Below are positions 1 to 21,800 of a stretch of DNA of 64,000 bases, one piece after another (position 1 is the first letter of the stretch; each line of letters begins with the position of its first letter). Both the position numbers and the translations under genes were made by a program. Source of the stretch: a virus; the IMG/VR virus record IMGVR_UViG_3300021963_005763, positions 39,954-103,953 of that record; one strand, written 5' to 3'. The notes beneath the pieces were generated by a model. The model was not told the DNA's origin and made no database searches. It saw only the letters and a program-made list of their open reading frames with translations.

Positions 1-2736
1 ATTATTTGATTTCTTAGGACTAAGAGCTCCTATGTTATCAACGTTTAATCTGCTTAGGTTAGATGGTATGCCTTCTATATACGAAACAGAATTAGGATCT
101 AATTCCAAATCTTCTTTGGTAATTTTTACTGTAGCACCTTCCCCTATTCCGCTTCCCGGATTGCTGATGAGTAGATTTTTTTCTAGACTCTCACTGACCA
201 ATGATGTAACTAAATCTTTTGACCTAGATCCGTCACTATAGGACAAAAGTGTTGCCACTGTCTGTCTAACTTTACTGGAATTTTCTAAAGATGTTTGGCT
301 AAGTTCTGCCAGTCCTTCCTGGCTTAATCTTATATTTCTAGCCATATCACTCGGAAGCGGCGCTCCAATTGGCAAACTATCAGATGATAGACTTCCATCC
401 AAAGGATATTCTCCGAATGATTGATTTTTCACGGTGTCTTCATTACCACCTAGCCCCCCTGTGGCATTGGTGAAATTAGTATCGTCACTGGGCAAACCTC
501 TGTCATTGGGCAATCTATCACTAAAATCGCTGGCAGGTGTTTGTGCCTCAATGACTTGATCTTTAGGATTAGGAGAAGTAATCATAGCATCAGCCGGATC
601 AGTTGGCTGTAGATTTTGATCTATAAGTTGCCCCGGAATACGAATAAGATTTAATTTCTGATAAAAGAATCCATCCTTAAAGGTATTCTTTACCGTAGTA
701 ACTTGAAAAACACCACTAAAGGGTATGCGATTACTGTCAAATATCATCATACCATTAGAACCTATGTCAATAGGATTTCTAAAATTTATAGCTATTAAAA
801 CTTGACCAACTATATGTGCTGCTTCCCCATCAACAGTTTCTAAATGAGTTGTTAAAGCAGGATTATAATTCCCTATTCCACCTGTTACAGTAAAAAATGG
901 ATCTCCAAGAATTTCAATTTCTGCTGTAGCAAGACTTGTACTGTTAAGAACCTTTTCGTGCATTGACCTAGCTAACACACTGTAAGGATCATTTTTTGGC
1001 AGTGCTGAATTATATCCGCTTGGAGGTAGAACACTGGTAGCAGTAGGATCTGTTCTTTTACTAGGTTGAGGTACTGTAGTGTCTGTATTCAATGTTGTAG
1101 GATTTTGTTTTACATTTGTACTATTACCAGGTCTAGCCGCAGTCTTTGTGCCTTTTTCATCTTTATTACCCATATTTTGAGGAATAGCTTCAAAATAAAG
1201 AAAATTAAAATTCAATCTAAAATTTCTAACATCTGTGTTTAAACCTGTATACAAATAATTGTATTCCCTTAACACTGACCTTTTTAACTTTTTTTCGTTA
1301 ACTAAGGAACTTTCTAAATTAGGAATATTTGTATAATGAATCCTATAGGGAGTTACAACATAGGTATATGTTTGGTAAGGCTTCTTGGTTTTATCATCTA
1401 TATTAGAAGAATTCTTAACCTCTGTTCTAACAATAAAATAATCAACCATACCATCATTGTCTATTTTAAGATCTTTGATTAAATTACTAACATATTCGCT
1501 ATCTCTAATAACAGCAGCAATAATTTCATGTAGACTTACATTTTCTGGAAACTGAGTAACTGTTTTTTTTGGTTCAAACTTTTTTTCATCTAAATCAGTG
1601 TCACCAGATGGAGCAACATCCTTGACTGTTTTATAATTTGTCTTTTTATCTGTTTGGCTAGGATCTATCATCTGATAAAGGTTACTATCTGTGCCTAATT
1701 CAGACAACTTAGATTTAGCTATAGCACCTTCACTGTCATCAGTCCATCCGTTTGCGCTAGGTTTAAGAAACTTAATTTCATAGGTATCATGAAATTGACT
1801 GCCTGCCTTTTTGGCATTTTGTTTTTCCTGATCAGTTACATTGTCCATGAGATCTTTCAATATCTCTCGAACATTTTCTCCTGCCATTTTTACAGATTTT
1901 TTCAGTTTACCCGGTTGGCCGTAGGCAGTTTCATTGAATGGAACTGCGCTACATCTATATTTTGTACCACGTTCAGTTACTTCAACTTCTACTCCTGTAA
2001 ATTTAAAAACAAAGTATCTTTCACTTTTAGGAACGAAATCCGCATCAGGAAATTGTACATCATCTTTATAACCAATAAACTGAAGTTTCAATACAAAACT
2101 CGCACTGGCATAATTAGGATACCCCGCCTTTACCGCAGATATCTGAAGTGCTTCTAAGAATCCATTTATACTGTATGGTTCAATAACTTCAAATTTAAGA
2201 CTGGTAGGCTGAGTGGTACCGCCTTGCTGACTAAAGGCCATTATAGTATCGATTTCTACATCGTCTATGAACATGTCAAATCTACCAGGACTATCTTTAT
2301 TGAAGCCGGAAATAGCCTGTAAGTTTTCTGCTTGCTGTGCTGCTTCTTTTTTTTCTTCGTCCGTTTTGGCCTTTGATTGGTTTACCTTTACTTTTTCTTG
2401 GTCTTGAATAGTAGGATATGCTATGGCATCTCTACCTTTTCCACCAGATCTTAAAATAACCAAATCTAGCTCACTATTTCTATAAGCAGCAGGATTATTA
2501 GCCACTGTTTTGTCTAAGGCAGCTAACACAAAATTATAGGTATATGATCTATAACTACTCAGAATATTTTTTTTGCCGCTACTGACAAATTCAGCCTTTT
2601 GATCTGCCTCTTTTTTGTCTTTGTTGGTAGCCTTTTCAGTTTTGGCTGTCTTTCTTTCTACTTTTTGATTCGTAGATTCAGAGGGTGTAGGAACAAAAGC
2701 AGACTCATAACCGGAATATTCATATTCATTGGCCAT
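1..2736 (-). CDS. Baseplate hub-like protein (gp27/VgrG/GpD-like), runs off the window edge; missing from the ORF track
   Basis: ATG at 2736 (MANEYEYSGYESFVPT...). Frame is open wherever spot-checked down to position 1. Contains EILGDPFF and FSGVFQVTTVKNTFKDGFFYQKLNLIR, typical of hub proteins. Follows the gp53-like gene. Confidence 0.7.
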   Translation of the reverse strand, partial: MANEYEYSGYESAFVPTPSESTNQKVERKTAKTEKATNKDKKEADQKAEFVSSGKKNILSSYRSYTYNFVLAALDKTVANNPAAYRNSELDLVILRSGGKGRDAIAYPTIQDQEKVKVNQSKAKTDEEKKEAAQQAENLQAISGFNKDSPGRFDMFIDDVEIDTIMAFSQQGGTTQPTSLKFEVIEPYSINGFLEALQISAVKAGYPNYASASFVLKLQFIGYKDDVQFPDADFVPKSERYFVFKFTGVEVEVTERGTKYRCSAVPFNETAYGQPGKLKKSVKMAGENVREILKDLMDNVTDQEKQNAKKAGSQFHDTYEIKFLKPSANGWTDDSEGAIAKSKLSELGTDSNLYQMIDPSQTDKKTNYKTVKDVAPSGDTDLDEKKFEPKKTVTQFPENVSLHEIIAAVIRDSEYVSNLIKDLKIDNDGMVDYFIVRTEVKNSSNIDDKTKKPYQTYTYVVTPYRIHYTNIPNLESSLVNEKKLKRSVLREYNYLYTGLNTDVRNFRLNFNFLYFEAIPQNMGNKDEKGTKTAARPGNSTNVKQNPTTLNTDTTVPQPSKRTDPTATSVLPPSGYNSALPKNDPYSVLARSMHEKVLNSTSLATAEIEILGDPFFTVTGGIGNYNPALTTHLETVDGEAAHIVGQVLIAINFRNPIDIGSNGMMIFDSNRIPFSGVFQVTTVKNTFKDGFFYQKLNLIRIPGQLIDQNLQPTDPADAMITSPNPKDQVIEAQTPASDFSDRLPNDRGLPSDDTNFTNATGGLGGNEDTVKNQSFGEYPLDGSLSSDSLPIGAPLPSDMARNIRLSQEGLAELSQTSLENSSKVRQTVATLLSYSDGSRSKDLVTSLVSESLEKNLLISNPGSGIGEGATVKITKEDLELDPNSVSYIEGIPSNLSRLNVDNIGALSPKKSNN

Positions 2737-7828: not shown

Positions 7829-8141
7829 ATTTGAAGATAGATATCGAGAATTGTATTCAAGATACGTAGAGCTTAATATAAATCTGCATAATTACCATGT
7901 CGAGTTCTTCAGGCGTAAGTTAAAGAAAGATGCAGATAATATACGAGATTGTCTTGCCGAGATGAGAGAACTTGTATTGGATATGAAAAAGATAGTGTTA
8001 GCAGTAAGACGAGAACATGTAAAAAATTGGCGAGTAAAAATACAGGACAAATATTATTACTCTAAAGATGGAAAGAAAAAACTAAAGAGGTCAACGAAAA
8101 AAGATTATGGAAACTACAAACCACCTGAAAAAACTATTTGA
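7818..8141 (+). CDS. Hypothetical basic helical protein
   Basis: 107-aa ORF overlapping both neighbours in the operon. Confidence 0.55.
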   Translation: MSTEFEDRYRELYSRYVELNINLHNYHVEFFRRKLKKDADNIRDCLAEMRELVLDMKKIVLAVRREHVKNWRVKIQDKYYYSKDGKKKLKRSTKKDYGNYKPPEKTI

Positions 8142-8301
8142 AGAATTTCTCAAAGAAGATGAAAAGTTTACCAGCGGCAATGCTGCGGCTGGAACCAGAG
8201 CAAGAAAAGCATTAGCAGAAATTTCTAAGACAGTTAAAGCTCGTCGTAATGAAATTACAGAAGAAAAAAATGCTCGCAAGGAAGCCAAGGCCGCTAAATG
8301 A
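8107..8301 (+). CDS. Histone H1-like (Hc1-family) small DNA-binding protein
   Basis: GNAAAGTRARKAL.EI motif; 64 aa; Lys/Ala-rich. Confidence 0.7.
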   Translation: METTNHLKKLFEEFLKEDEKFTSGNAAAGTRARKALAEISKTVKARRNEITEEKNARKEAKAAK

Positions 8302-8304
8302 TTG

Positions 8305-8739
8305 ATGTCTTGGTATCATCAAGATACGATAGTCAATGAATTACCCGATGATTGTATTGGTTTTGTGTATCTCATCACCAATACAATCACAAATAAAAAA
8401 TACATAGGCAAAAAATTAGGCAAATTTTCAAAAACAACCTACAAAGTAGTAAAATTAAAAAACGGTACTAAGAAAAAGAAACGCATCAAAACAAAGATAG
8501 ACTCAGACTGGCAAACATATTACGGCTCAAACGATCAACTCACAAAAGATGTAGCACAATTAGGCACCGACAAATTTCACAGAGAAATATTATATTTTTG
8601 TAAATCTAAGGCAGAATGTAGTTACATTGAGGCACGCGAACAATTCACAAGAAAAGTATTAGAATCAGACGAATATTATAACGGACAGATATCTGTTCGT
8701 GTCCATGGCTCACATATCAAAGGCAAATTAATCGGTTAA
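8305..8739 (+). CDS. Stand-alone GIY-YIG family nuclease
   Basis: GFVYLITN...KKYIGKK, YYGS, E, YYN motifs; Lys-rich insertion; no appended DNA-binding domains. Confidence 0.8.
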   Translation: MSWYHQDTIVNELPDDCIGFVYLITNTITNKKYIGKKLGKFSKTTYKVVKLKNGTKKKKRIKTKIDSDWQTYYGSNDQLTKDVAQLGTDKFHREILYFCKSKAECSYIEAREQFTRKVLESDEYYNGQISVRVHGSHIKGKLIG

Positions 8740-8741
8740 CG

Positions 8742-9152
8742 GCTCGCACAGGCTAACTTCATGTGCCCTAAACCTGGACCTAGTGTCGCAGGGACGGAAT
8801 GCTCACCGCCGTAGTGAGAACTCAACCACTACCCATAAGGATGTAGATCACTAATCGCCGTGATTTGGTTGTTTGAATAGGTTAAACCCAAGGCAAAAAA
8901 GACGCTCTTAATCGAGCACGTTTTACAAATGTGATAGCGTATATTTGTAAGACCGCCGTTGTAATGAAGACGGGGATGGAGGTACCGGACAACCGCCTCT
9001 GCTAAACACCCTAACGCTGTGTGACTATGCTACTCAGATGATGCATAACTTCGCCCGCCCTGGGCGAAGTGTGACCACTTAATCTAGATGATACTAAAAG
9101 ACAAAAATGCTTCGAGTCTCGTAGACGAAGAAGCGAACGAACGTAGTTCGTT
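8742..9152 (+). ncRNA. Putative large structured non-coding RNA (family not recognised; strand assumed from flanking genes)
   Basis: No ORF of 60 aa or more; ~48% GC by hand count; at least 10 consecutive stems, a multi-way junction and a possible pseudoknot. Confidence 0.6.
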
Positions 9153-9180
9153 ACTAAATACCGGATACTGTCAATAAATC

Positions 9181-10464
9181 ATGAAATTATATCAAGCCCT
9201 CGGTCAAGAAACTATATTTGAAAGTATAGGTAGTAACGATCCCTATTTCCGTAAATGGCAAAAAGAAATACATCCTGTTCTATGTGAAGTTGCTCTACAA
9301 CCCGATCAAATAAATCAATTATTCAAATCGATTGAGAAGGGCGGAGGGAGAAGTCTCATAGGCAAGGCCAAGGATGCTGCTGGAAAAATTAACAACATAT
9401 GGTTTGATAAATTCGGTGGTATGTTACAAAATAGCACTCCTGTCCAAGCATTTGATCAAAAATATGAACAACTTAAATCAAGCATAGCTGCTAAGAATCA
9501 TAAGGTAGCTGCTAGTTTAGCCAAGTATGGGGATTTCGCAAAAAACAACCCTAAATTACAAAAATTTTTATTGGCAATCGCAGGCAGCGTGGCTGCTGCA
9601 CTAGGAGTAGCGTTTGCAGGAGGGGTAGGTGCTGGAGCATTAGCAGTGGGCACAGGTGCAGGCATAGCAACAGGTATCATTAATATTGCTGACCGTTTAT
9701 TACAAGGACAACGAGCCAGCACTGCTATTGGTAGAGGCGCTACTACAGGAGCCATTGCTGGACTAACTGCTGCGGCTGCTACAACAATTGCTGGATCGAT
9801 AGCAGATAGTTTTAGAGCAGAATATGTTCAAGCCAGAGGTGCTAACAATCTAATGAAAGGCACATTCGATCTCAATGGTCAATGGACCTTTGTCACAGGC
9901 AAAGCTGAAGATGTTCGTATGCTGAACAAACTAGTCGATGCTGGAGATATGAACGGTTTTTATAACCTAGTGGCCAAGATGCGAACTCCGGAATATGTTC
10001 AAGGATTGAACGCTTCTATGGACATTATCAAACAGGCTGCTCAACATTATCAAACAGCTAAGGATACACTGACAACATTGGCACAGGTAGCTGCTGCCGG
10101 AGCAGGCGGTGCTGTCAGTGCGGCTACAAGCGGTCAACCTACTACTGAATCAGTATCCCGTAGACAAATTACAGAATTATTTGGCATCACTGGTAATAAG
10201 ATAGATGCTAGTAAATTAGAAAAAGCATGGACACAGGCTGGCTCTCCTACAGACAGTGAAGAAATTAGAAAAATTTTACAAAGTGCGGGCGTCGAATCTA
10301 GCATTATAGATCAAGCATTTCAAGATATAGGTGTTCAAAGTTCTGTTGGAAACACAGCAAATAAAACAGTTACTCAAACGGTAAATACGCAGGAAATAGT
10401 AGCAAGAATACGAAAACTTACTCCTGCTCAACAAAAAGAAATTTTAGCCTTGTTAGGACAATAA
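9181..10464 (+). CDS. Hypothetical virion-associated protein with hydrophobic Gly/Ala segment
   Basis: TAAATA at 9155-9160 upstream; 427 aa; FLLAIAGSVAAALGVAFAGGVGAG segment. Confidence 0.5.
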   Translation: MKLYQALGQETIFESIGSNDPYFRKWQKEIHPVLCEVALQPDQINQLFKSIEKGGGRSLIGKAKDAAGKINNIWFDKFGGMLQNSTPVQAFDQKYEQLKSSIAAKNHKVAASLAKYGDFAKNNPKLQKFLLAIAGSVAAALGVAFAGGVGAGALAVGTGAGIATGIINIADRLLQGQRASTAIGRGATTGAIAGLTAAAATTIAGSIADSFRAEYVQARGANNLMKGTFDLNGQWTFVTGKAEDVRMLNKLVDAGDMNGFYNLVAKMRTPEYVQGLNASMDIIKQAAQHYQTAKDTLTTLAQVAAAGAGGAVSAATSGQPTTESVSRRQITELFGITGNKIDASKLEKAWTQAGSPTDSEEIRKILQSAGVESSIIDQAFQDIGVQSSVGNTANKTVTQTVNTQEIVARIRKLTPAQQKEILALLGQ

Positions 10465-10465
10465 C

Positions 10466-11314
10466 ATGAGAATTAATGAAATTATAACTGAAGAACAACT
10501 GGATGAATTAAACCTAAAGGGTCTAGGAACAGGGTTAGGTAAAGTTATCGGTGGAGCTGCTGGCGGTGTAGTTCAGGGTGCTAAAAATGTTTGGTCAGGA
10601 ATGAAACAAGGCTATCAAGGCGCTCAACAGGCATTAGCCCCGGATACAACTGGTACAACTGCTCCTGCAACAACTGCTTCTGGTGCTACTACATCTCCTA
10701 GTACCAGTGCAACACCTACTACGTCTACTGCTCCTAGTTCTAGCTCAGTCTCTCCGTCGACTGCTCAATCTACAACAACAGCTCCAGAACCGCAGGCAAC
10801 TCTGGATGAATTAGATAGTATCAAGGCGTTGGTTCAAAAATTAAATCCTGAACAAAAGCAAGAAGTAGCAGCTGAATTACAAAAACCTGAAATACAACAA
10901 CCGTCTGCACCTGCTCCCCAACAAGCACCTGCCGCTCCTACAGGAACAAGTGTAGATATAGGTCAGGTTAAGCAGCAAAGTGCTCAACAAGCACAGGCAG
11001 CGCAGACAGATAAAGCTACAGCACAGCAACAGATCGCAGCTACACAACAAGCAAATAGTCAAAAAGCCAAACAAGATGCTGCTATTAAGGCTGCTAAAGA
11101 TGCTGCTATGGCTAAACCAGCTTTCCAGCAGACAGCATCAGACAAACTGGCTATTCAAAAGGCACAGCAAATGGGTATTAGAGAAGCGGTAAGTGAGAGT
11201 AAACAACCTAAAAAGCCTGCACCAAAGCAGCCTGCTAAAAAGCCTACTCCTGGAAAGAAGAAAAAAATTGTTGTTGCGGAATTTAATAGTAAATTTCTAG
11301 GAATACCTATCTAA
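10466..11314 (+). CDS. Hypothetical low-complexity (Thr/Ser/Pro/Gln/Ala) protein, possible internal head protein
   Basis: 282-aa ORF, MRINEII start, co-oriented with the 9181 gene. Confidence 0.5.
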   Translation: MRINEIITEEQLDELNLKGLGTGLGKVIGGAAGGVVQGAKNVWSGMKQGYQGAQQALAPDTTGTTAPATTASGATTSPSTSATPTTSTAPSSSSVSPSTAQSTTTAPEPQATLDELDSIKALVQKLNPEQKQEVAAELQKPEIQQPSAPAPQQAPAAPTGTSVDIGQVKQQSAQQAQAAQTDKATAQQQIAATQQANSQKAKQDAAIKAAKDAAMAKPAFQQTASDKLAIQKAQQMGIREAVSESKQPKKPAPKQPAKKPTPGKKKKIVVAEFNSKFLGIPI

Positions 11315-11529
11315 AAGAACGGTAATCCAGATTCTTTAGTTGTCTTAAGATTATCTTCAATTAACTTAGCTATAATTTCTCGATCTTCGGGGGTTAACAT
11401 ATGACTTTGATCATATGTTAACCCACCTCGCATAAACCAACAGATTCTTAAAAGTTCTTGTTTTATGGCTTTTGTATCATTCTCATAGACTTTAACCATG
11501 TCGTCTATTCTGTCGGCGCTGAGATTCAA
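11311..11529 (-). CDS. Tail/baseplate assembly chaperone C-terminal ORF, probably expressed by -1 frameshift
   Basis: TTG start with no clear SD; lies in the -1 frame of the upstream gene and is open back to the slippery site at 11541-11547. Confidence 0.6.
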   Translation of the reverse strand: MNLSADRIDDMVKVYENDTKAIKQELLRICWFMRGGLTYDQSHMLTPEDREIIAKLIEDNLKTTKESGLPFF

Positions 11530-11534
11530 AAGCC

Positions 11535-12398
11535 TTATGCGAAAAAATTTGATGGATCAAACGTCAACGGTATGGTGATCATATCTTCTGTTACACCTTG
11601 CTCTCTCATTTCGTCAGTTACAGGAATTTCTATAGGCCTTACTGCATTTGATTGCTGAAGATTTTCTAGATGTTTTTGAATTCGGTTAAAGATTTCCTTG
11701 TCGGAATTCATTACAAATTCTCTAATATAGTCTTGGTCATCAACTGTACCTTCACTAGTTTCAATTTTTATTATGCTTTCTGATATTACAGACATTGTAA
11801 CATCTGTTAATTTGCTAAAACTATCTTTAAATATTTCAACTTTTTGTTCATCAGTTAATGTTTCATTGTTTACTGCCTGCATTATTTTTTGAGTTTCGAA
11901 TGTTTTTACTGCAGTTTTAGTCATTTGCCTATAGTTTAATGGTCGTACATAGACTGTCATCTCATCATTGATAGGGATAACAGGATCCCATCTAATGTTT
12001 GATAATAAATTATCCATAACTAGTCTAATATCTACCTGGTAATCAAATTCGAAACCTTCCTTTAAACTAACAGGAGTTTTCATTAATTCACCATAGGTAG
12101 CTAGACGAATTGAAAGTAGCAGAATATCTAGGTCTATACTAGGTATCATCCAGGCATTTTTGATTTGAGGAACACAGTTTTGAATGATATCAACTACTGC
12201 TTGTCCATTCATTAGGGCGTCCGGCACATTTAACATTAGTTCGTCTTTGGCAGTCATGCTATATACAGCCAATTGACCATTATCAGGCATGTCAATACTG
12301 TCCTCGGGATAATATGCTCCACCGCTAGGCAGTGAAATGTATATCTTAGGCTGTCTCATAAATGCCGCTAATGGGTTAGGACCACGGTTTTGAACCAT
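11535..12398 (-). CDS. Baseplate hub assembly protein / tail assembly chaperone, gp26-like
   Basis: NPL..FMRQPKIYISLPS.G..Y, MTAKDEL, DLDILLLSIRLATYG motifs; GGAG SD supports ATG 12398. Confidence 0.7.
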   Translation of the reverse strand: MVQNRGPNPLAAFMRQPKIYISLPSGGAYYPEDSIDMPDNGQLAVYSMTAKDELMLNVPDALMNGQAVVDIIQNCVPQIKNAWMIPSIDLDILLLSIRLATYGELMKTPVSLKEGFEFDYQVDIRLVMDNLLSNIRWDPVIPINDEMTVYVRPLNYRQMTKTAVKTFETQKIMQAVNNETLTDEQKVEIFKDSFSKLTDVTMSVISESIIKIETSEGTVDDQDYIREFVMNSDKEIFNRIQKHLENLQQSNAVRPIEIPVTDEMREQGVTEDMITIPLTFDPSNFFA

Positions 12399-12410
12399 TT
12401 TCAATCTCCG

Positions 12411-20990: not shown

Positions 20991-21012
20991 AAGCCCGCCA
21001 TGCGGGCTTTTT
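20991..21012 (+). terminator. Rho-independent terminator after the major capsid gene
   Basis: AAGCCCGC-cat-GCGGGCTT followed by T run. Confidence 0.85.
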
Positions 21013-21086
21013 GTTAACAGCCTTAACAGGTTTATGCGGTACCCGCCGCGTAGTGGCTAGAACCCACATACATTGAGGAGAAACAA

Positions 21087-21800
21087 ATGGGACGTCCGAT
21101 TAAAGAAAAGTTTTTTGGTAATACAAATTCACCTTACACAAATGTAGCAAGAGGTGGAACATCAGGAGTAGGTGGGGAAGGATTTGGTGCTGTTGCAATT
21201 TTAAATACAGCAACAAATAGCGGATATTCTACTTCTACAACTGTTACATGGACAGGAAGCACACCGCAAGTTCCGGGTGGTGTAGCAGCTAGCGGTACTG
21301 CAAATGTGCAATTTATTGGTGGAACTGGGCGTATTCAAAGTCTTAATATAACTACCGCTGGTACTGGTTATACATCAACATCTAGCGTTACTATAACATT
21401 TAGCCCAGCAACAGGTGGTACTGCTGCTACGTATGCTATTACTGCTTTAACATCAAGTCGCCAAAATGCGTTGAGAGGTTTCGCATACCTAACGACTGGA
21501 AGTAGTGCTGTTCCTTATGATATTATGGAACAAAGAAGTAGCCGCAGGTATTTAGTGAACACAAGTCAAGGTAGGGGCGTGGTTAAATTAGCTACTACTA
21601 CAACCTTAACAGCAGGAACAATGAATTTAGAAGCTACTGATGCAAATAGTAATAAGTATCTTGTTAAGAAATTAACAGGACGCCGTGCTGTTCTTGTAAG
21701 AACAACAGCTAGCGGAGCTTGGTTATTTGCTACAAATGCTGCCGCAGGGTGGACATTTAATTCTGCGAGCACAGGCACAGTTAGTTTAGCAAATAATTAA
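21087..21800 (+). CDS. Putative head decoration/virion protein
   Basis: Thr/Gly-rich beta-type sequence; strong GAGGAG SD; directly after the capsid gene. Confidence 0.5.
   Translation: MGRPIKEKFFGNTNSPYTNVARGGTSGVGGEGFGAVAILNTATNSGYSTSTTVTWTGSTPQVPGGVAASGTANVQFIGGTGRIQSLNITTAGTGYTSTSSVTITFSPATGGTAATYAITALTSSRQNALRGFAYLTTGSSAVPYDIMEQRSSRRYLVNTSQGRGVVKLATTTTLTAGTMNLEATDANSNKYLVKKLTGRRAVLVRTTASGAWLFATNAAAGWTFNSASTGTVSLANN

What the first reader, a model, noticed from the sequence alone, without database searches (positions are those of the whole stretch)
8305..9152. Minimal GIY-YIG nuclease immediately followed by a ~410-nt highly structured non-coding element: candidate nuclease-RNA system
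Seen: the largest intergenic gap in the window starts right after the GIY-YIG stop codon. It is ~48% GC (196/410 by hand), well above the AT-rich gaps elsewhere. Stems cover almost all of it: GCACA/TGTGC (8746-8766); CCTG-GAC/GTC-CAGG (8773-8792); CTCAC/GTGAG (8802-8818); a junction closed by CAACCA/TGGTTG (8823-8871) enclosing CTAC/GTAG and ATCAC/GTGAT; GCTC/GAGC (8904-8917); a ~14-bp stem with G-U pairs (8920-8953); CCGTT/GACGG; GGAGGT/GCCTCT; TATGC/GCATA; a perfect ACTTCGCCC/GGGCGAAGT (9048-9070); AACGAAC/GTTCGTT (9136-9152). G-U pairs favour an RNA fold over a DNA cruciform. The protein is only the catalytic domain plus a very basic insertion (KVVKLKNGTKKKKRIKTK). Known: GIY-YIG homing endonucleases such as I-TevI need extra DNA-binding domains, and IscB/TnpB get specificity from an adjacent RNA. 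Inference: this may be an RNP in which RNA scaffolds or guides the nuclease. Alternatives are an independent large phage ncRNA or ribozyme, or a replication origin.
Basis: partly seen in the sequence, partly recalled or inferred. Interest (0 to 1): 0.9.

Follow-up and report, generated by a model that had tools for sequence, protein, structure and literature searches.

The report
Twin-box phage RNA beside nuclease gene
The gene-free stretch behind a small nuclease gene of this uncultured T4-like freshwater phage encodes a real, roughly 415-base, knotted non-coding RNA. Its first third is the catalogued orphan motif Polynucleobacter-1, the nuclease looks like a habitual neighbour rather than a partner, and what the RNA does is still unknown.

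Summary
Window 8740-9180 is the largest intergenic gap, has 47-48% GC against 39% for the window, and is structured on the + strand.

Bases 8741-8874 match Rfam RF01718 (Polynucleobacter-1) at 113 bits. Conservation and covariation continue to about 9155. On 45 diverse copies I counted 95 pairs in 19 helices, 73 of them with compensatory changes, including three pseudoknots. The RNA is therefore about three times longer than the catalogued motif.

It carries two 7-nt boxes (9036-9042 and 9086-9092) that are identical in 89 of 89 copies despite 8 variants.

The RNA-guided-nuclease reading is not supported:
- A complete phage genome with a 69%-identical GIY-YIG lacks the RNA.
- Some phages carry the RNA behind an unrelated PDDEXK_15 nuclease, or behind another gene.
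- Burkholderiales chromosomes carry full-length copies in islands, with no adjacent nuclease in most.

Still, 72 of 75 phage copies follow a small nuclease gene, so a link is not excluded.

Best reading: an independent, mobile-element-borne large ncRNA whose twin boxes are read by an unknown outside partner.

This scan has already found the same family on other genomes. New here are the nuclease swap, the bacterial full-length copies and the negative searches for a complement to the boxes.

The parts
8305..8739 (+). 144-aa stand-alone GIY-YIG nuclease gene with a basic beta-hairpin insertion at residues about 40-66.
   Evidence: PF19835 at 2.5e-32 and phrog_447 at 3.9e-36 over the full length. 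The motif and catalytic-candidate residues are invariant in 27 homologues. AlphaFold model pLDDT 88. Best PDB match is the I-TevI catalytic domain, Z 9.0, rmsd 2.6 over 84 residues.
8740..9155 (+). The whole conserved non-coding RNA (extended Polynucleobacter-1, 'twin-box' RNA), about 415 nt.
   Evidence: Conservation runs from 8740 to about 9160 in 54 homologous loci and falls off after that. 95 pairs in 19 helices; 88.7% of cells paired against 72.7% in shuffles; covariation 0.450 against 0.177 (0 of 500 shuffles reach it) and 0.07-0.10 when slid. G-U 6.7% against A-C 2.6% places it on the + strand.
8741..8874 (+). 5' domain, the catalogued Polynucleobacter-1 motif: three hairpins (8746-8766, 8774-8791, 8802-8818) and a three-way junction (stem 8823-8827/8867-8871 enclosing 8833-8840 and 8846-8865). 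Probable small pseudoknots at 8741-8743 x 8752-8754 and 8792-8793 x 8809-8810.
   Evidence: RF01718 at 113.1 bits (gathering score 37), model positions 1-141 of 141. Helices 1-8. Mutual information.
8875..8919 (+). A-rich linker of variable length, then the variable hairpin 8904-8917.
   Evidence: Alignment A1. Helix 9: 62% paired, 3 of 4 pairs with double changes; the alignment is poor here.
8920..8953 (+). 13-bp hairpin of hypervariable sequence with a conserved loop (GAUAGCGUAU).
   Evidence: Helix 10: all 13 pairs with compensatory changes, 94.6% paired.
8934..9020 (+). Long-range pseudoknot: hairpin loop 8934-8939 pairs with 9015-9020.
   Evidence: Helix 11: 6 of 6 pairs with double changes, 97% paired. 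High mutual information.
8954..9011 (+). Pseudoknotted core. 8958-8962 x 8989-8993 crosses the stacked helices 8978-8982/8996-9000 and 8973-8975/9009-9011. Invariant GGUACCGG..ACCGCC and GAAGAC.
   Evidence: Helices 12-14 (97.8%, 100% and 72.9% paired). Invariant columns.
9019..9043 (+). Twin unit 1 (GUGUGAC-N-CUC-box). Box 1 is 9036-9042, AGAUGAU.
   Evidence: Identity covariation 9036/9086, 9040/9090 and 9042/9092. Boxes identical in 89 of 89 copies, 8 variants.
9048..9070 (+). 9-bp GC-rich hairpin between the twin units.
   Evidence: Helix 15 (81% paired, 2 pairs with double changes).
9069..9093 (+). Twin unit 2. Box 2 is 9086-9092, AGAUGAU, exactly 50 nt after box 1.
   Evidence: The same twin arrangement, with other box sequences, is present in Burkholderiales copies.
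9109..9152 (+). Two 3'-terminal hairpins (9109-9134 and 9136-9152). The last is the probable 3' end or terminator.
   Evidence: Helices 16-19 (71-99% paired; every pair has compensatory changes). No canonical U-tract in this copy; many relatives have UUUAU after the stem.
9154..9160 (+). CTAAATA, a late-promoter-like box after the RNA and ahead of the 427-aa ORF (9181-10464).
   Evidence: Read from the sequence. Many relatives end in TATAAAT. That it is a late promoter is inference from T4 late promoters and from the earlier notes.

Best explanation
The gap is the gene of a roughly 415-nt structured non-coding RNA, the full-length form of the orphan Polynucleobacter-1 motif. This RNA family is carried by mobile elements: T4-like freshwater phages and rare Burkholderiales genomic islands.

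In this phage it is most likely transcribed as the tail of the gp47-gp46-...-GIY-YIG unit (inferred). It starts at the nuclease stop codon and ends at the hairpin 9136-9152, just before a late-promoter-like box.

The fold is shown by covariation. It has a 5' three-hairpin plus three-way-junction domain, a long hairpin whose loop is tied by a 6-bp pseudoknot to the 3' part, and an H-type pseudoknot core.

On either side of a GC hairpin the RNA displays two identical 7-nt boxes, for which no pairing partner was found inside the RNA. These boxes change quickly between relatives but always change together.

Inferred mechanism: the RNA acts in trans and does not depend on the nuclease. It serves as a rigid scaffold or decoy that presents the twin boxes to an outside reader with two equivalent reading sites. 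The boxes would then act as a fast-evolving specificity determinant.

The GIY-YIG protein is an ordinary catalytic-domain-only DNA endonuclease that keeps its place next to the RNA through conserved gene order.
For: The RNA is real.
- RF01718 scores 113 bits.
- Conservation reaches about 9160.
- 95 pairs, 73 with double changes; covariation 0.450 against 0.177 in shuffles and about 0.08 when slid.
- Strand-specific G-U pairs.

The RNA does not depend on the nuclease.
- G159, a complete phage genome with a 69%-identical GIY-YIG, lacks the RNA, with positive controls ringing.
- GIY-YIG loci in other contexts, and the cultured relatives Melnitz and S-RIM2, lack it; the protein family has one copy in each of 489 cultured-phage records.
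- The RNA follows PDDEXK_15 instead in L129, L197, L120, L156 and L108, whose records have no GIY-YIG match.
- It follows unrelated 257-aa and 334-aa ORFs in L124 and L063.
- L173 has the RNA with no nuclease nearby.
- 12 Burkholderiales loci, including isolate genomes, carry copies of about 500 nt with the same architecture and twin boxes. They lie next to a divergent DUF6641 gene and, in some, an integrase.
- The RNA is patchy in bacteria: 1 of 151 genomes of that family.

The twin boxes.
- Identical in 89 of 89 copies.
- They switch independently of nuclease divergence, and L129's box behind PDDEXK_15 reads AGATAAT, the commonest variant in the set.

Expression. RNA-library contigs from 4 studies cover relatives' GIY-YIG gene and RNA, and 3 of them bridge the stop codon. 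This is a weak hint only.
Against: In the set of phage loci found through a 3'-core motif, independently of the nuclease, 72 of 75 assessable RNA copies have a small nuclease gene upstream on the same strand: 67 GIY-YIG (61 within 120 nt) and 5 PDDEXK_15. Replacement of one nuclease fold by another at the same spot could mean that a nuclease is wanted there.

No reader of the twin boxes was found, so the trans-acting mechanism is inference. No discrete transcript ends, promoter or terminator are shown for this copy. The phage loci are related by descent, so the counts are not independent events in either direction.
Confidence: 0.6

Rival explanations
1. Nuclease-RNA particle. The RNA binds the GIY-YIG or PDDEXK_15 nuclease. 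The two identical boxes act as twin guides that aim a dimeric nuclease at a target with two equivalent 7-nt half-sites.
For: 72 of 75 phage RNA copies lie just behind a small, domain-only nuclease gene, and a second nuclease family takes the same place. The nuclease has no DNA-binding domain but has a basic beta-hairpin. The boxes vary independently of the protein, as guides would. In Polynucleobacter rarus an ORF whose N-terminus reads by eye like a GIY-YIG motif follows the RNA; Pfam gave no hit on its first 153 aa.
Against: A complete phage genome and many loci have the nuclease without the RNA. The RNA occurs without the nuclease in L173, after other ORFs, and in the bacterial islands, where similarity searches found no neighbouring nuclease. 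One scaffold serving two unrelated folds is unlike known RNA-guided nucleases. Phage contigs do not avoid the cognate 7-mer or its complement.
Confidence: 0.06
2. Selfish free-standing homing endonucleases. GIY-YIG and PDDEXK_15 genes have settled next to a highly conserved RNA gene that holds or adjoins their cleavage site, as Seg and Mob genes do in T-even phages.
For: Two unrelated nuclease families occupy the same intergenic site directly upstream of a very conserved sequence. Pfam files the protein with the SegE GIY-YIG domain.
Against: No empty sites were seen among T4-like loci: 72 of 75 are occupied. The family has one copy in each of 489 cultured-phage records, which looks like a core gene. 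There is no DNA-binding domain for a long target; the whole family is about 145 aa. Close homologues sit in other contexts without the RNA.
Confidence: 0.12
3. Cis-acting 3' element or RNA antidote. The structure stabilises or regulates the nuclease mRNA, or sequesters the nuclease protein to protect phage DNA.
For: The RNA begins at the stop codon with no terminator between. RNA-library contigs bridge gene and RNA.
Against: The bacterial copies are separate units with their own upstream intergenic region, and similarity searches found no nuclease next to them. The same RNA follows unrelated ORFs. 415 nt with three pseudoknots and invariant junctions is far more than an mRNA stabiliser needs.
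Confidence: 0.07
4. RNA-only quaternary assembly like ROOL, GOLLD or OLE. The RNA multimerises, and the twin boxes are inter-subunit contacts.
For: Its size, its ornate pseudoknotted fold and its phage or mobile-element habitat resemble GOLLD and ROOL, which form homo-oligomers (PMC12286853, abstract).
Against: There is no Rfam similarity to those families. Inter-subunit pairing predicts complementary or palindromic elements, not two identical ones. Box 2 with its 5' flank is palindromic only in some variants (my own reading).
Confidence: 0.1
5. DNA-level element: a replication origin, or two 7-bp crossover cores for a site-specific recombinase.
For: Identical 7-bp cores are what tyrosine recombinases need. 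Some bacterial islands carry a small integrase near the RNA.
Against: Compensatory changes keep G-U but not A-C pairs, which points to RNA on one strand. I saw no inverted binding arms around the boxes. 50 bp is, as far as I know, too short for synapsis. No recombinase turned up in the phage loci examined, though I ran no integrase search on them. The one deletion variant (L088) does not break at the boxes.
Confidence: 0.03

Closest known systems
Polynucleobacter-1 RNA motif (Rfam RF01718; Weinberg et al. 2010, PMC2864571)
   Same: Bases 8741-8874 are a full-length, high-scoring member (113 bits). The same habitats apply (fresh water, Burkholderiales). The 2010 note that most copies lie downstream of one gene family (GOS11034, said to resemble PSSM2_218 of cyanophage P-SSM2) fits the GIY-YIG neighbour seen here.
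   Different: The catalogued motif is 141 positions. The conserved, covarying RNA is about 415 nt in phages and about 500 nt in bacteria, with three pseudoknots and twin boxes that are not in the model. The 2010 paper found no copy in any purified phage; here it lies in hundreds of T4-like viral contigs.
Large ornate bacterial and phage RNAs of unknown function (GOLLD, ROOL, OLE, HEARO)
   Same: Several hundred nucleotides, many covarying helices and pseudoknots, invariant junction nucleotides, carriage by phages and mobile elements, no known function.
   Different: No sequence or structure match in Rfam. The identity-covarying twin boxes have no counterpart that I know of in those families.
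Phage immunity antisense RNAs with repeated boxes (P1/P7 C4 RNA; P4 CI RNA with seqA/seqC) - from my own knowledge
   Same: Short direct-repeat boxes in one transcript that must stay alike between themselves while differing between related elements, giving specificity groups.
   Different: Those systems have a complementary third box in the same transcript. None was found here in the RNA, the flanks or the bacterial loci. Those RNAs are also far smaller.
RNA-guided nucleases with an adjacent scaffold RNA (IscB/TnpB omega-RNA, Cas9/12)
   Same: A nuclease gene with a large structured RNA directly at its 3' end.
   Different: Protein and RNA are separable in both directions. Two unrelated nuclease folds neighbour the same RNA. 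There is no long variable guide, and no transposon ends were recognised in the loci examined.
GIY-YIG endonucleases of T-even phages (I-TevI, Seg proteins, endonuclease II)
   Same: GIY-YIG catalytic core with the motif and candidate catalytic residues. Nearest solved fold is the I-TevI catalytic domain (Z 9.0).
   Different: No linker or DNA-binding domain. A 20-27-residue basic beta-hairpin is inserted after the YIG strand. The gene is single-copy and near-universal in Kyanoviridae rather than sporadic. T4 endonuclease II did not appear among the structural matches, which leaves kinship with it open.

Membership tests
Polynucleobacter-1 RNA (RF01718) | Covariance-model score above Rfam's gathering score over the whole model. 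| tested here: met
   113.1 bits against 37, model 1-141 of 141, E 9e-24.
Polynucleobacter-1 RNA (RF01718) | The helices of the model are kept by compensatory changes in relatives. | tested here: met
   Helices 2, 3, 5, 6 and 8: 88-99.6% paired, most pairs with double changes.
Polynucleobacter-1 RNA (RF01718) | Lies downstream of a GOS11034-family gene (Weinberg 2010 supplement). | not testable with these tools
   No GOS11034 sequence is held. The upstream gene here is a PF19835 GIY-YIG whose cyanophage homologues are common, which fits but does not prove identity.
GIY-YIG nuclease superfamily | GIY and YIG motifs with the conserved Arg, Glu and Asn. | tested here: met
   G19, F20, Y22, Y33, G35, R93, E109 and N126 are invariant, and I34 nearly invariant, in 27 homologues. 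PF19835 at 2.5e-32. Assigning these residues to catalytic roles is by analogy with I-TevI.
GIY-YIG nuclease superfamily | The GIY-YIG alpha/beta fold. | tested here: met
   Model pLDDT 88. I-TevI catalytic domain Z 9.0, rmsd 2.6 over 84 residues; PD-T4-3 GIY-YIG restriction enzyme Z 7.6.
Free-standing homing endonuclease (Seg / I-TevI type) | A C-terminal DNA-binding module that recognises a long target. | tested here: not met
   144 aa, catalytic domain only. phrog_447 profile is 148 long, and the 120 closest relatives listed (searched only among proteins of 79-252 aa) are 141-149 aa.
Free-standing homing endonuclease (Seg / I-TevI type) | Sporadic presence or absence at one site among close relatives. 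| tested here: not met
   72 of 75 assessable sites are occupied. One copy in each of 489 cultured-phage records.
Free-standing homing endonuclease (Seg / I-TevI type) | Cleaves nuclease-less alleles and is copied into them. | not testable with these tools
   Needs enzyme assays and mixed infections.
RNA-guided nuclease with adjacent scaffold RNA (IscB/TnpB/Cas-like) | Obligate co-occurrence of the protein and its RNA. | tested here: not met
   Nuclease without RNA: G159 (complete genome) and other loci. RNA without this nuclease.
RNA-guided nuclease with adjacent scaffold RNA (IscB/TnpB/Cas-like) | A variable guide segment within a conserved scaffold. | tested here: inconclusive
   The only fast-varying segments without an internal pairing partner are the two 7-nt boxes. 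No target was found.
RNA-guided nuclease with adjacent scaffold RNA (IscB/TnpB/Cas-like) | RNA-dependent, sequence-programmed cleavage. | not testable with these tools
   Needs biochemistry.
Group I intron carrying a GIY-YIG ORF | A group I core and an interrupted host gene. | tested here: not met
   No intron model matches even at E up to 5. The flanking ORFs are complete and differ between loci.
C4 / CI-type immunity antisense RNA | A third box complementary to the repeated boxes. | tested here: not met
   No cognate-specific complement in the RNA, the phage flanks, the nuclease 5' end or the bacterial loci.

The most novel reading that the evidence does not exclude
The twin-box RNA is the programmable half of a new kind of RNA-guided nuclease. 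A dimeric domain-only nuclease (GIY-YIG, or interchangeably PDDEXK_15) docks on the scaffold. The two identical 7-nt boxes pair with the two strands of an inverted-repeat DNA target. This would give a restriction-like double-strand cut whose specificity evolves by changing both boxes together.
Probability: 0.04. Interest if true: 0.95.

Novelty: new variant of a known kind. Interest (0 to 1): 0.6.

Why it matters
Large, intricately folded bacterial and phage RNAs are rare, and each class found so far has opened a new line of work.

This result shows that a 141-position orphan motif catalogued in 2010 is only the first third of a roughly 415-500-nt RNA with several pseudoknots. The RNA is abundant in freshwater T4-like phages and is also present in isolate genomes of Limnohabitans and Polynucleobacter, which makes it reachable by experiment.

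Its two boxes, always identical yet fast-changing, are an unusual form of covariation: identity rather than complementarity. That pattern points to a reader that has not been identified.

The work also removes a tempting false lead. The neighbouring minimal GIY-YIG nuclease is, on present evidence, not an RNA-guided enzyme.

Tried and rejected
1. Pairing of the twin boxes with the 5' end of the GIY-YIG mRNA. The window has an 11-of-12 match at 8314-8325, but cognate and non-cognate complementarity are equal across 83 loci (8.34 against 8.35). Rejected.

2. A complementary third box inside the RNA. There are no cognate-specific sites, with Watson-Crick pairs alone or with G-U, at 0 or 1 mismatch.

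3. A complement in the phage flanks. There is a slight excess (0.090 against 0.054 per kb), but the clusters lie in gp46 coding sequence and in the first codons of the downstream MRINEI-type ORFs, and they do not follow the box variant.

4. A complement in the bacterial loci. No enrichment.

5. Avoidance of the cognate 7-mer in phage contigs. None.

6. Homology between the phage MRINEI ORFs and the similar-looking bacterial ORFs. BLASTP is not significant.

7. Kinship of the GIY-YIG protein with T4 endonuclease II. There is no PDB sequence hit, and it is not among the structural matches, so this stays open.

8. tRNA or tmRNA in the gap. None.

9. Promoter and terminator consensus scans. Nothing above chance on the + strand.

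10. RNA-library contigs. They give no discrete ends, and parts of the RNA have no cover. This says nothing about absence.

11. Cultured phages. No blastn match to the RNA.

12. A first pattern with one base too many gave false zeros. It was corrected and positive controls then matched.

13. mafft-qinsi is not installed. A covariance model of the whole RNA was not attempted because it would exceed the tool's 400-column limit.
Full report
OBSERVATION. The finding is real at the stated coordinates. ORF 8305-8739 encodes a 144-aa protein that matches Pfam PF19835 (SegE GIY-YIG domain, 2.5e-32) and PHROG 447 over its whole length. The stretch 8740-9180 has no + strand ORF of 30 aa or more. It is the largest true intergenic gap in the window. 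It has 47.9% G+C against 38.7% for the window. Single-sequence folding is only mildly better than shuffles (z -2.54 on +, -0.96 on -), so the case rests on comparison with relatives.

WHAT IT IS. Rfam places 8741-8874 in RF01718, the Polynucleobacter-1 RNA, at 113 bits (gathering score 37) over the whole model. Nothing in Rfam covers 8875-9180. The only paper in the held library that describes this motif is Weinberg et al. 2010 (PMC2864571). Its supplement says that most copies lie downstream of genes of family GOS11034, with possible homology to PSSM2_218 of cyanophage P-SSM2, and that none was seen in a purified phage.

I collected 80 viral contigs encoding relatives of the nuclease. In 59 of them a conserved element begins at or near the stop codon. 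Conservation runs from 8740 to about 9160 and then collapses.

Forty-five copies under 93% identical (mean 65%) were aligned as A1. A structure built from Rfam, RNAalifold and mutual information on 89 copies has 95 pairs in 19 helices. Of its cells, 88.7% are standard pairs, against 72.7% in shuffles. Seventy-three pairs show changes on both sides. The covariation score is 0.450, against 0.177 in shuffles (0 of 500 reach it) and 0.07-0.10 when partners are slid by 1-3 columns. G-U cells outnumber A-C cells 6.7% to 2.6%, which places the RNA on the + strand. The catalogued motif is therefore only the first third of an RNA of about 415 nt.

ANATOMY (window coordinates).
- 5' domain: hairpins 8746-8766, 8774-8791 and 8802-8818, and a three-way junction closed by 8823-8827/8867-8871.
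- An A-rich linker and the variable hairpin 8904-8917.
- A 13-bp hairpin, 8920-8953, in which every pair covaries. Its loop (8934-8939) pairs with 9015-9020, with 6 of 6 pairs showing double changes.
- An H-type pseudoknot core: 8958-8962 x 8989-8993 crosses 8978-8982/8996-9000 and 8973-8975/9009-9011. It holds the invariant GGUACCGG..ACCGCC.
- Twin unit 1 (9019-9043), a 9-bp GC hairpin (9048-9070) and twin unit 2 (9069-9093).
- Two terminal hairpins, 9109-9134 and 9136-9152.
- A late-promoter-like CTAAATA at 9154-9160.

TWIN BOXES. Positions 9036-9042 and 9086-9092 (AGAUGAU) are identical to each other in 89 of 89 non-redundant phage copies, although eight variants exist. The mutual-information signal is one of identity, not complementarity (AA/GG, AA/GG, UU/AA). 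The boxes change fast. Among nuclease pairs 90-95% identical only 7 of 15 share a box, and below 80% sharing is at the random level. L129's box behind the PDDEXK_15 gene reads AGATAAT, the commonest variant in the set. I found no complementary partner in the RNA, in the phage flanks, at the nuclease 5' end or in the bacterial loci. The phage contigs do not avoid the 7-mer.

LINK TO THE NUCLEASE. To escape ascertainment through the protein, I fetched loci by a 3'-core DNA motif. Of these, 89 of 119 carry the RNA. Among the 75 with enough upstream sequence, 67 have the GIY-YIG gene upstream on the same strand (61 within 120 nt), 5 have a PF24608 PDDEXK_15 phage endonuclease instead, and 3 have neither.

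The records holding the PDDEXK_15 loci have no GIY-YIG match at E <= 0.001. One of them is a 302-kb contig estimated 85% complete. In six loci another ORF lies between nuclease and RNA; in the two I looked at, the RNA then begins 14-27 nt after that ORF. L173, a contig with a permuted tmRNA, has the RNA with no nuclease nearby.

In the other direction, about 17 loci with 69-77% identical GIY-YIG genes in a different gene context lack the RNA. The complete 161.9-kb genome G159 has neither RF01718 nor the 3'-core signature, while the positive controls ring. The protein family has one copy in each of 489 cultured-phage records, mostly Kyanoviridae and often mislabelled NAD synthetase. The RNA gave no blastn match in any cultured-phage record, and the two records I inspected lack RF01718: S-RIM2, where a tRNA follows the gene, and Methylophilales phage Melnitz.

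BACTERIA. A motif scan of one genome per species found 37 hits. Three are short phage-like contigs in metagenome-assembled genomes. At least 12 Burkholderiales loci score 86-104 bits for RF01718. They include isolate genomes of Polynucleobacter rarus and Limnohabitans sp. Bal53 and a Burkholderiaceae assembly filed as a chromosome.

Aligned, these loci are conserved for about 500 nt with the same order of elements, including ACCGCC, the GC hairpin, the terminal hairpins and twin boxes of different sequence that again change together. Similarity searches with the phage GIY-YIG and PDDEXK_15 proteins found no nuclease next to them. The exception is an ORF after the P. rarus copy whose N-terminus reads by eye like a GIY-YIG motif; Pfam gave no hit on its first 153 aa. 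The constant neighbour is a divergently transcribed DUF6641 gene, and some loci have a small integrase. Only 1 of 151 sampled genomes of the Limnohabitans family carries the RNA. In bacteria it is therefore cargo of a rare mobile island.

THE PROTEIN. The GIY and YIG motifs and the conserved Arg, Glu and Asn are invariant or nearly so in 27 homologues. The model (pLDDT 88) is a GIY-YIG core with a long basic beta-hairpin at residues about 40-66. The nearest solved structures are the I-TevI catalytic domain (Z 9.0, rmsd 2.6, 84 residues) and the PD-T4-3 GIY-YIG restriction enzyme (Z 7.6). There is no extra DNA-binding domain.

EXPRESSION. Contigs from four metatranscriptome studies lie on relatives' GIY-YIG gene and RNA, and three bridge the stop codon (8679-8829, 8697-8886, 8670-8834). 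Contigs cannot show strand or ends, and DNA carry-over is possible. This is only a weak hint of co-transcription.

HOW IT MOST LIKELY WORKS. Shown: a large, pseudoknotted + strand RNA, separable from the nuclease, borne by phages and islands, with two identity-locked boxes. Inferred: it is made as the 3' tail of the nuclease transcription unit in this phage. It acts in trans as a scaffold or decoy that offers the two boxes to an outside reader with two equivalent sites. The boxes serve as a fast-evolving specificity determinant, as box sequences do in the P1/P7 C4 and P4 CI immunity RNAs (my own knowledge), although the complementary box of those systems is missing here.

Confidence is about 0.6 for this package: 0.95 that the RNA is real, about 0.75 that it works without the nuclease, and about 0.35 for a base-pairing reader.

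NOVELTY AND EARLIER NOTES. The scan's notebook shows that other agents have already described this family on at least eight other genomes as an extended Polynucleobacter-1 'twin-box' RNA of unknown function, with the nuclease as a neighbour. My independent analysis agrees.

As far as two look-ups of those notes show, the following are added here:
- the in-place swap to PDDEXK_15;
- the complete genome with the nuclease but no RNA;
- the full-length twin-box copies in isolate Burkholderiales genomes with their DUF6641/integrase context and patchy spread;
- the independence of box variant from nuclease divergence;
- the negative searches for a complement.

In the literature I could search, only the 141-position motif is described. 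I class this as a new variant of a known kind.

Noticed in passing
window 21012-21089 (+): A second orphan Rfam motif, freshwater-2 RNA (RF02980, 58 bits against a gathering score of 49.9), lies in a small gap of the late-gene region.
   Followed up: no
window 8107-8301 (+): A 64-aa ORF just upstream of the nuclease matches the chlamydial histone-H1-like Hc1 family (PF07432, 3.3e-15). That is an unusual DNA-condensing protein for a phage.
   Followed up: no
window 10466-11314 (+); also L077, L176, L033, L079, L129, L075 and others: ORFs that begin M-[KR]-I-[NT]-E-[IL]..E.Q.DE follow the RNA in 22 of 76 phage loci, and 14 of them start within 80 nt of its end. Two bacterial islands (L205 3670-4074 on the minus strand, and L229) have Q/A/P-rich ORFs starting MRISEI or MRINEI two genes from the RNA. 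BLASTP shows no significant similarity.
   Followed up: partly
L129 3963-4481, L197 8819-9382, L156 9348-9851: PF24608 PDDEXK_15 endonuclease genes sit directly upstream of the RNA, where the GIY-YIG gene normally is. The whole records have no GIY-YIG match.
   Followed up: yes
L088 8480-8650: A natural deletion variant of the RNA lacks box 1, the GC hairpin and the 3' strand of the long-range pseudoknot. The break points are not at the boxes.
   Followed up: partly
L063 3960-4068 (-): An inverted partial second copy of the RNA's 3' part abuts the full copy.
   Followed up: no
L173 3911-4304 and 8395-8850: This phage contig carries a permuted tmRNA (RF04321, 92 bits), a tRNA and the twin-box RNA, with no nuclease gene beside the RNA.
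   Followed up: partly
L219 (Polynucleobacter rarus) 2-2398 (-): The bacterial RNA copy is followed by a long ORF whose N-terminus reads by eye like a GIY-YIG motif (GIYILVG...LYIGEG). Pfam gave no hit on its first 153 aa, and much of the ORF is masked as N in the held copy.
   Followed up: no
phage records (for example KX349298.1, NC_027204.1): This stand-alone GIY-YIG family (phrog_447) is widely labelled 'NAD synthetase' in GenBank phage records. Pfam and the fold show that this is a misannotation.
   Followed up: partly
window 11311-12404 (-): The genes on the opposite strand that usually bound the locus (the 72-aa and 289-aa ORFs, labelled gp51-like and gp26-like in earlier notes of this scan) are conserved in most related loci. 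The frameshift that other notes propose there was not examined.
   Followed up: no
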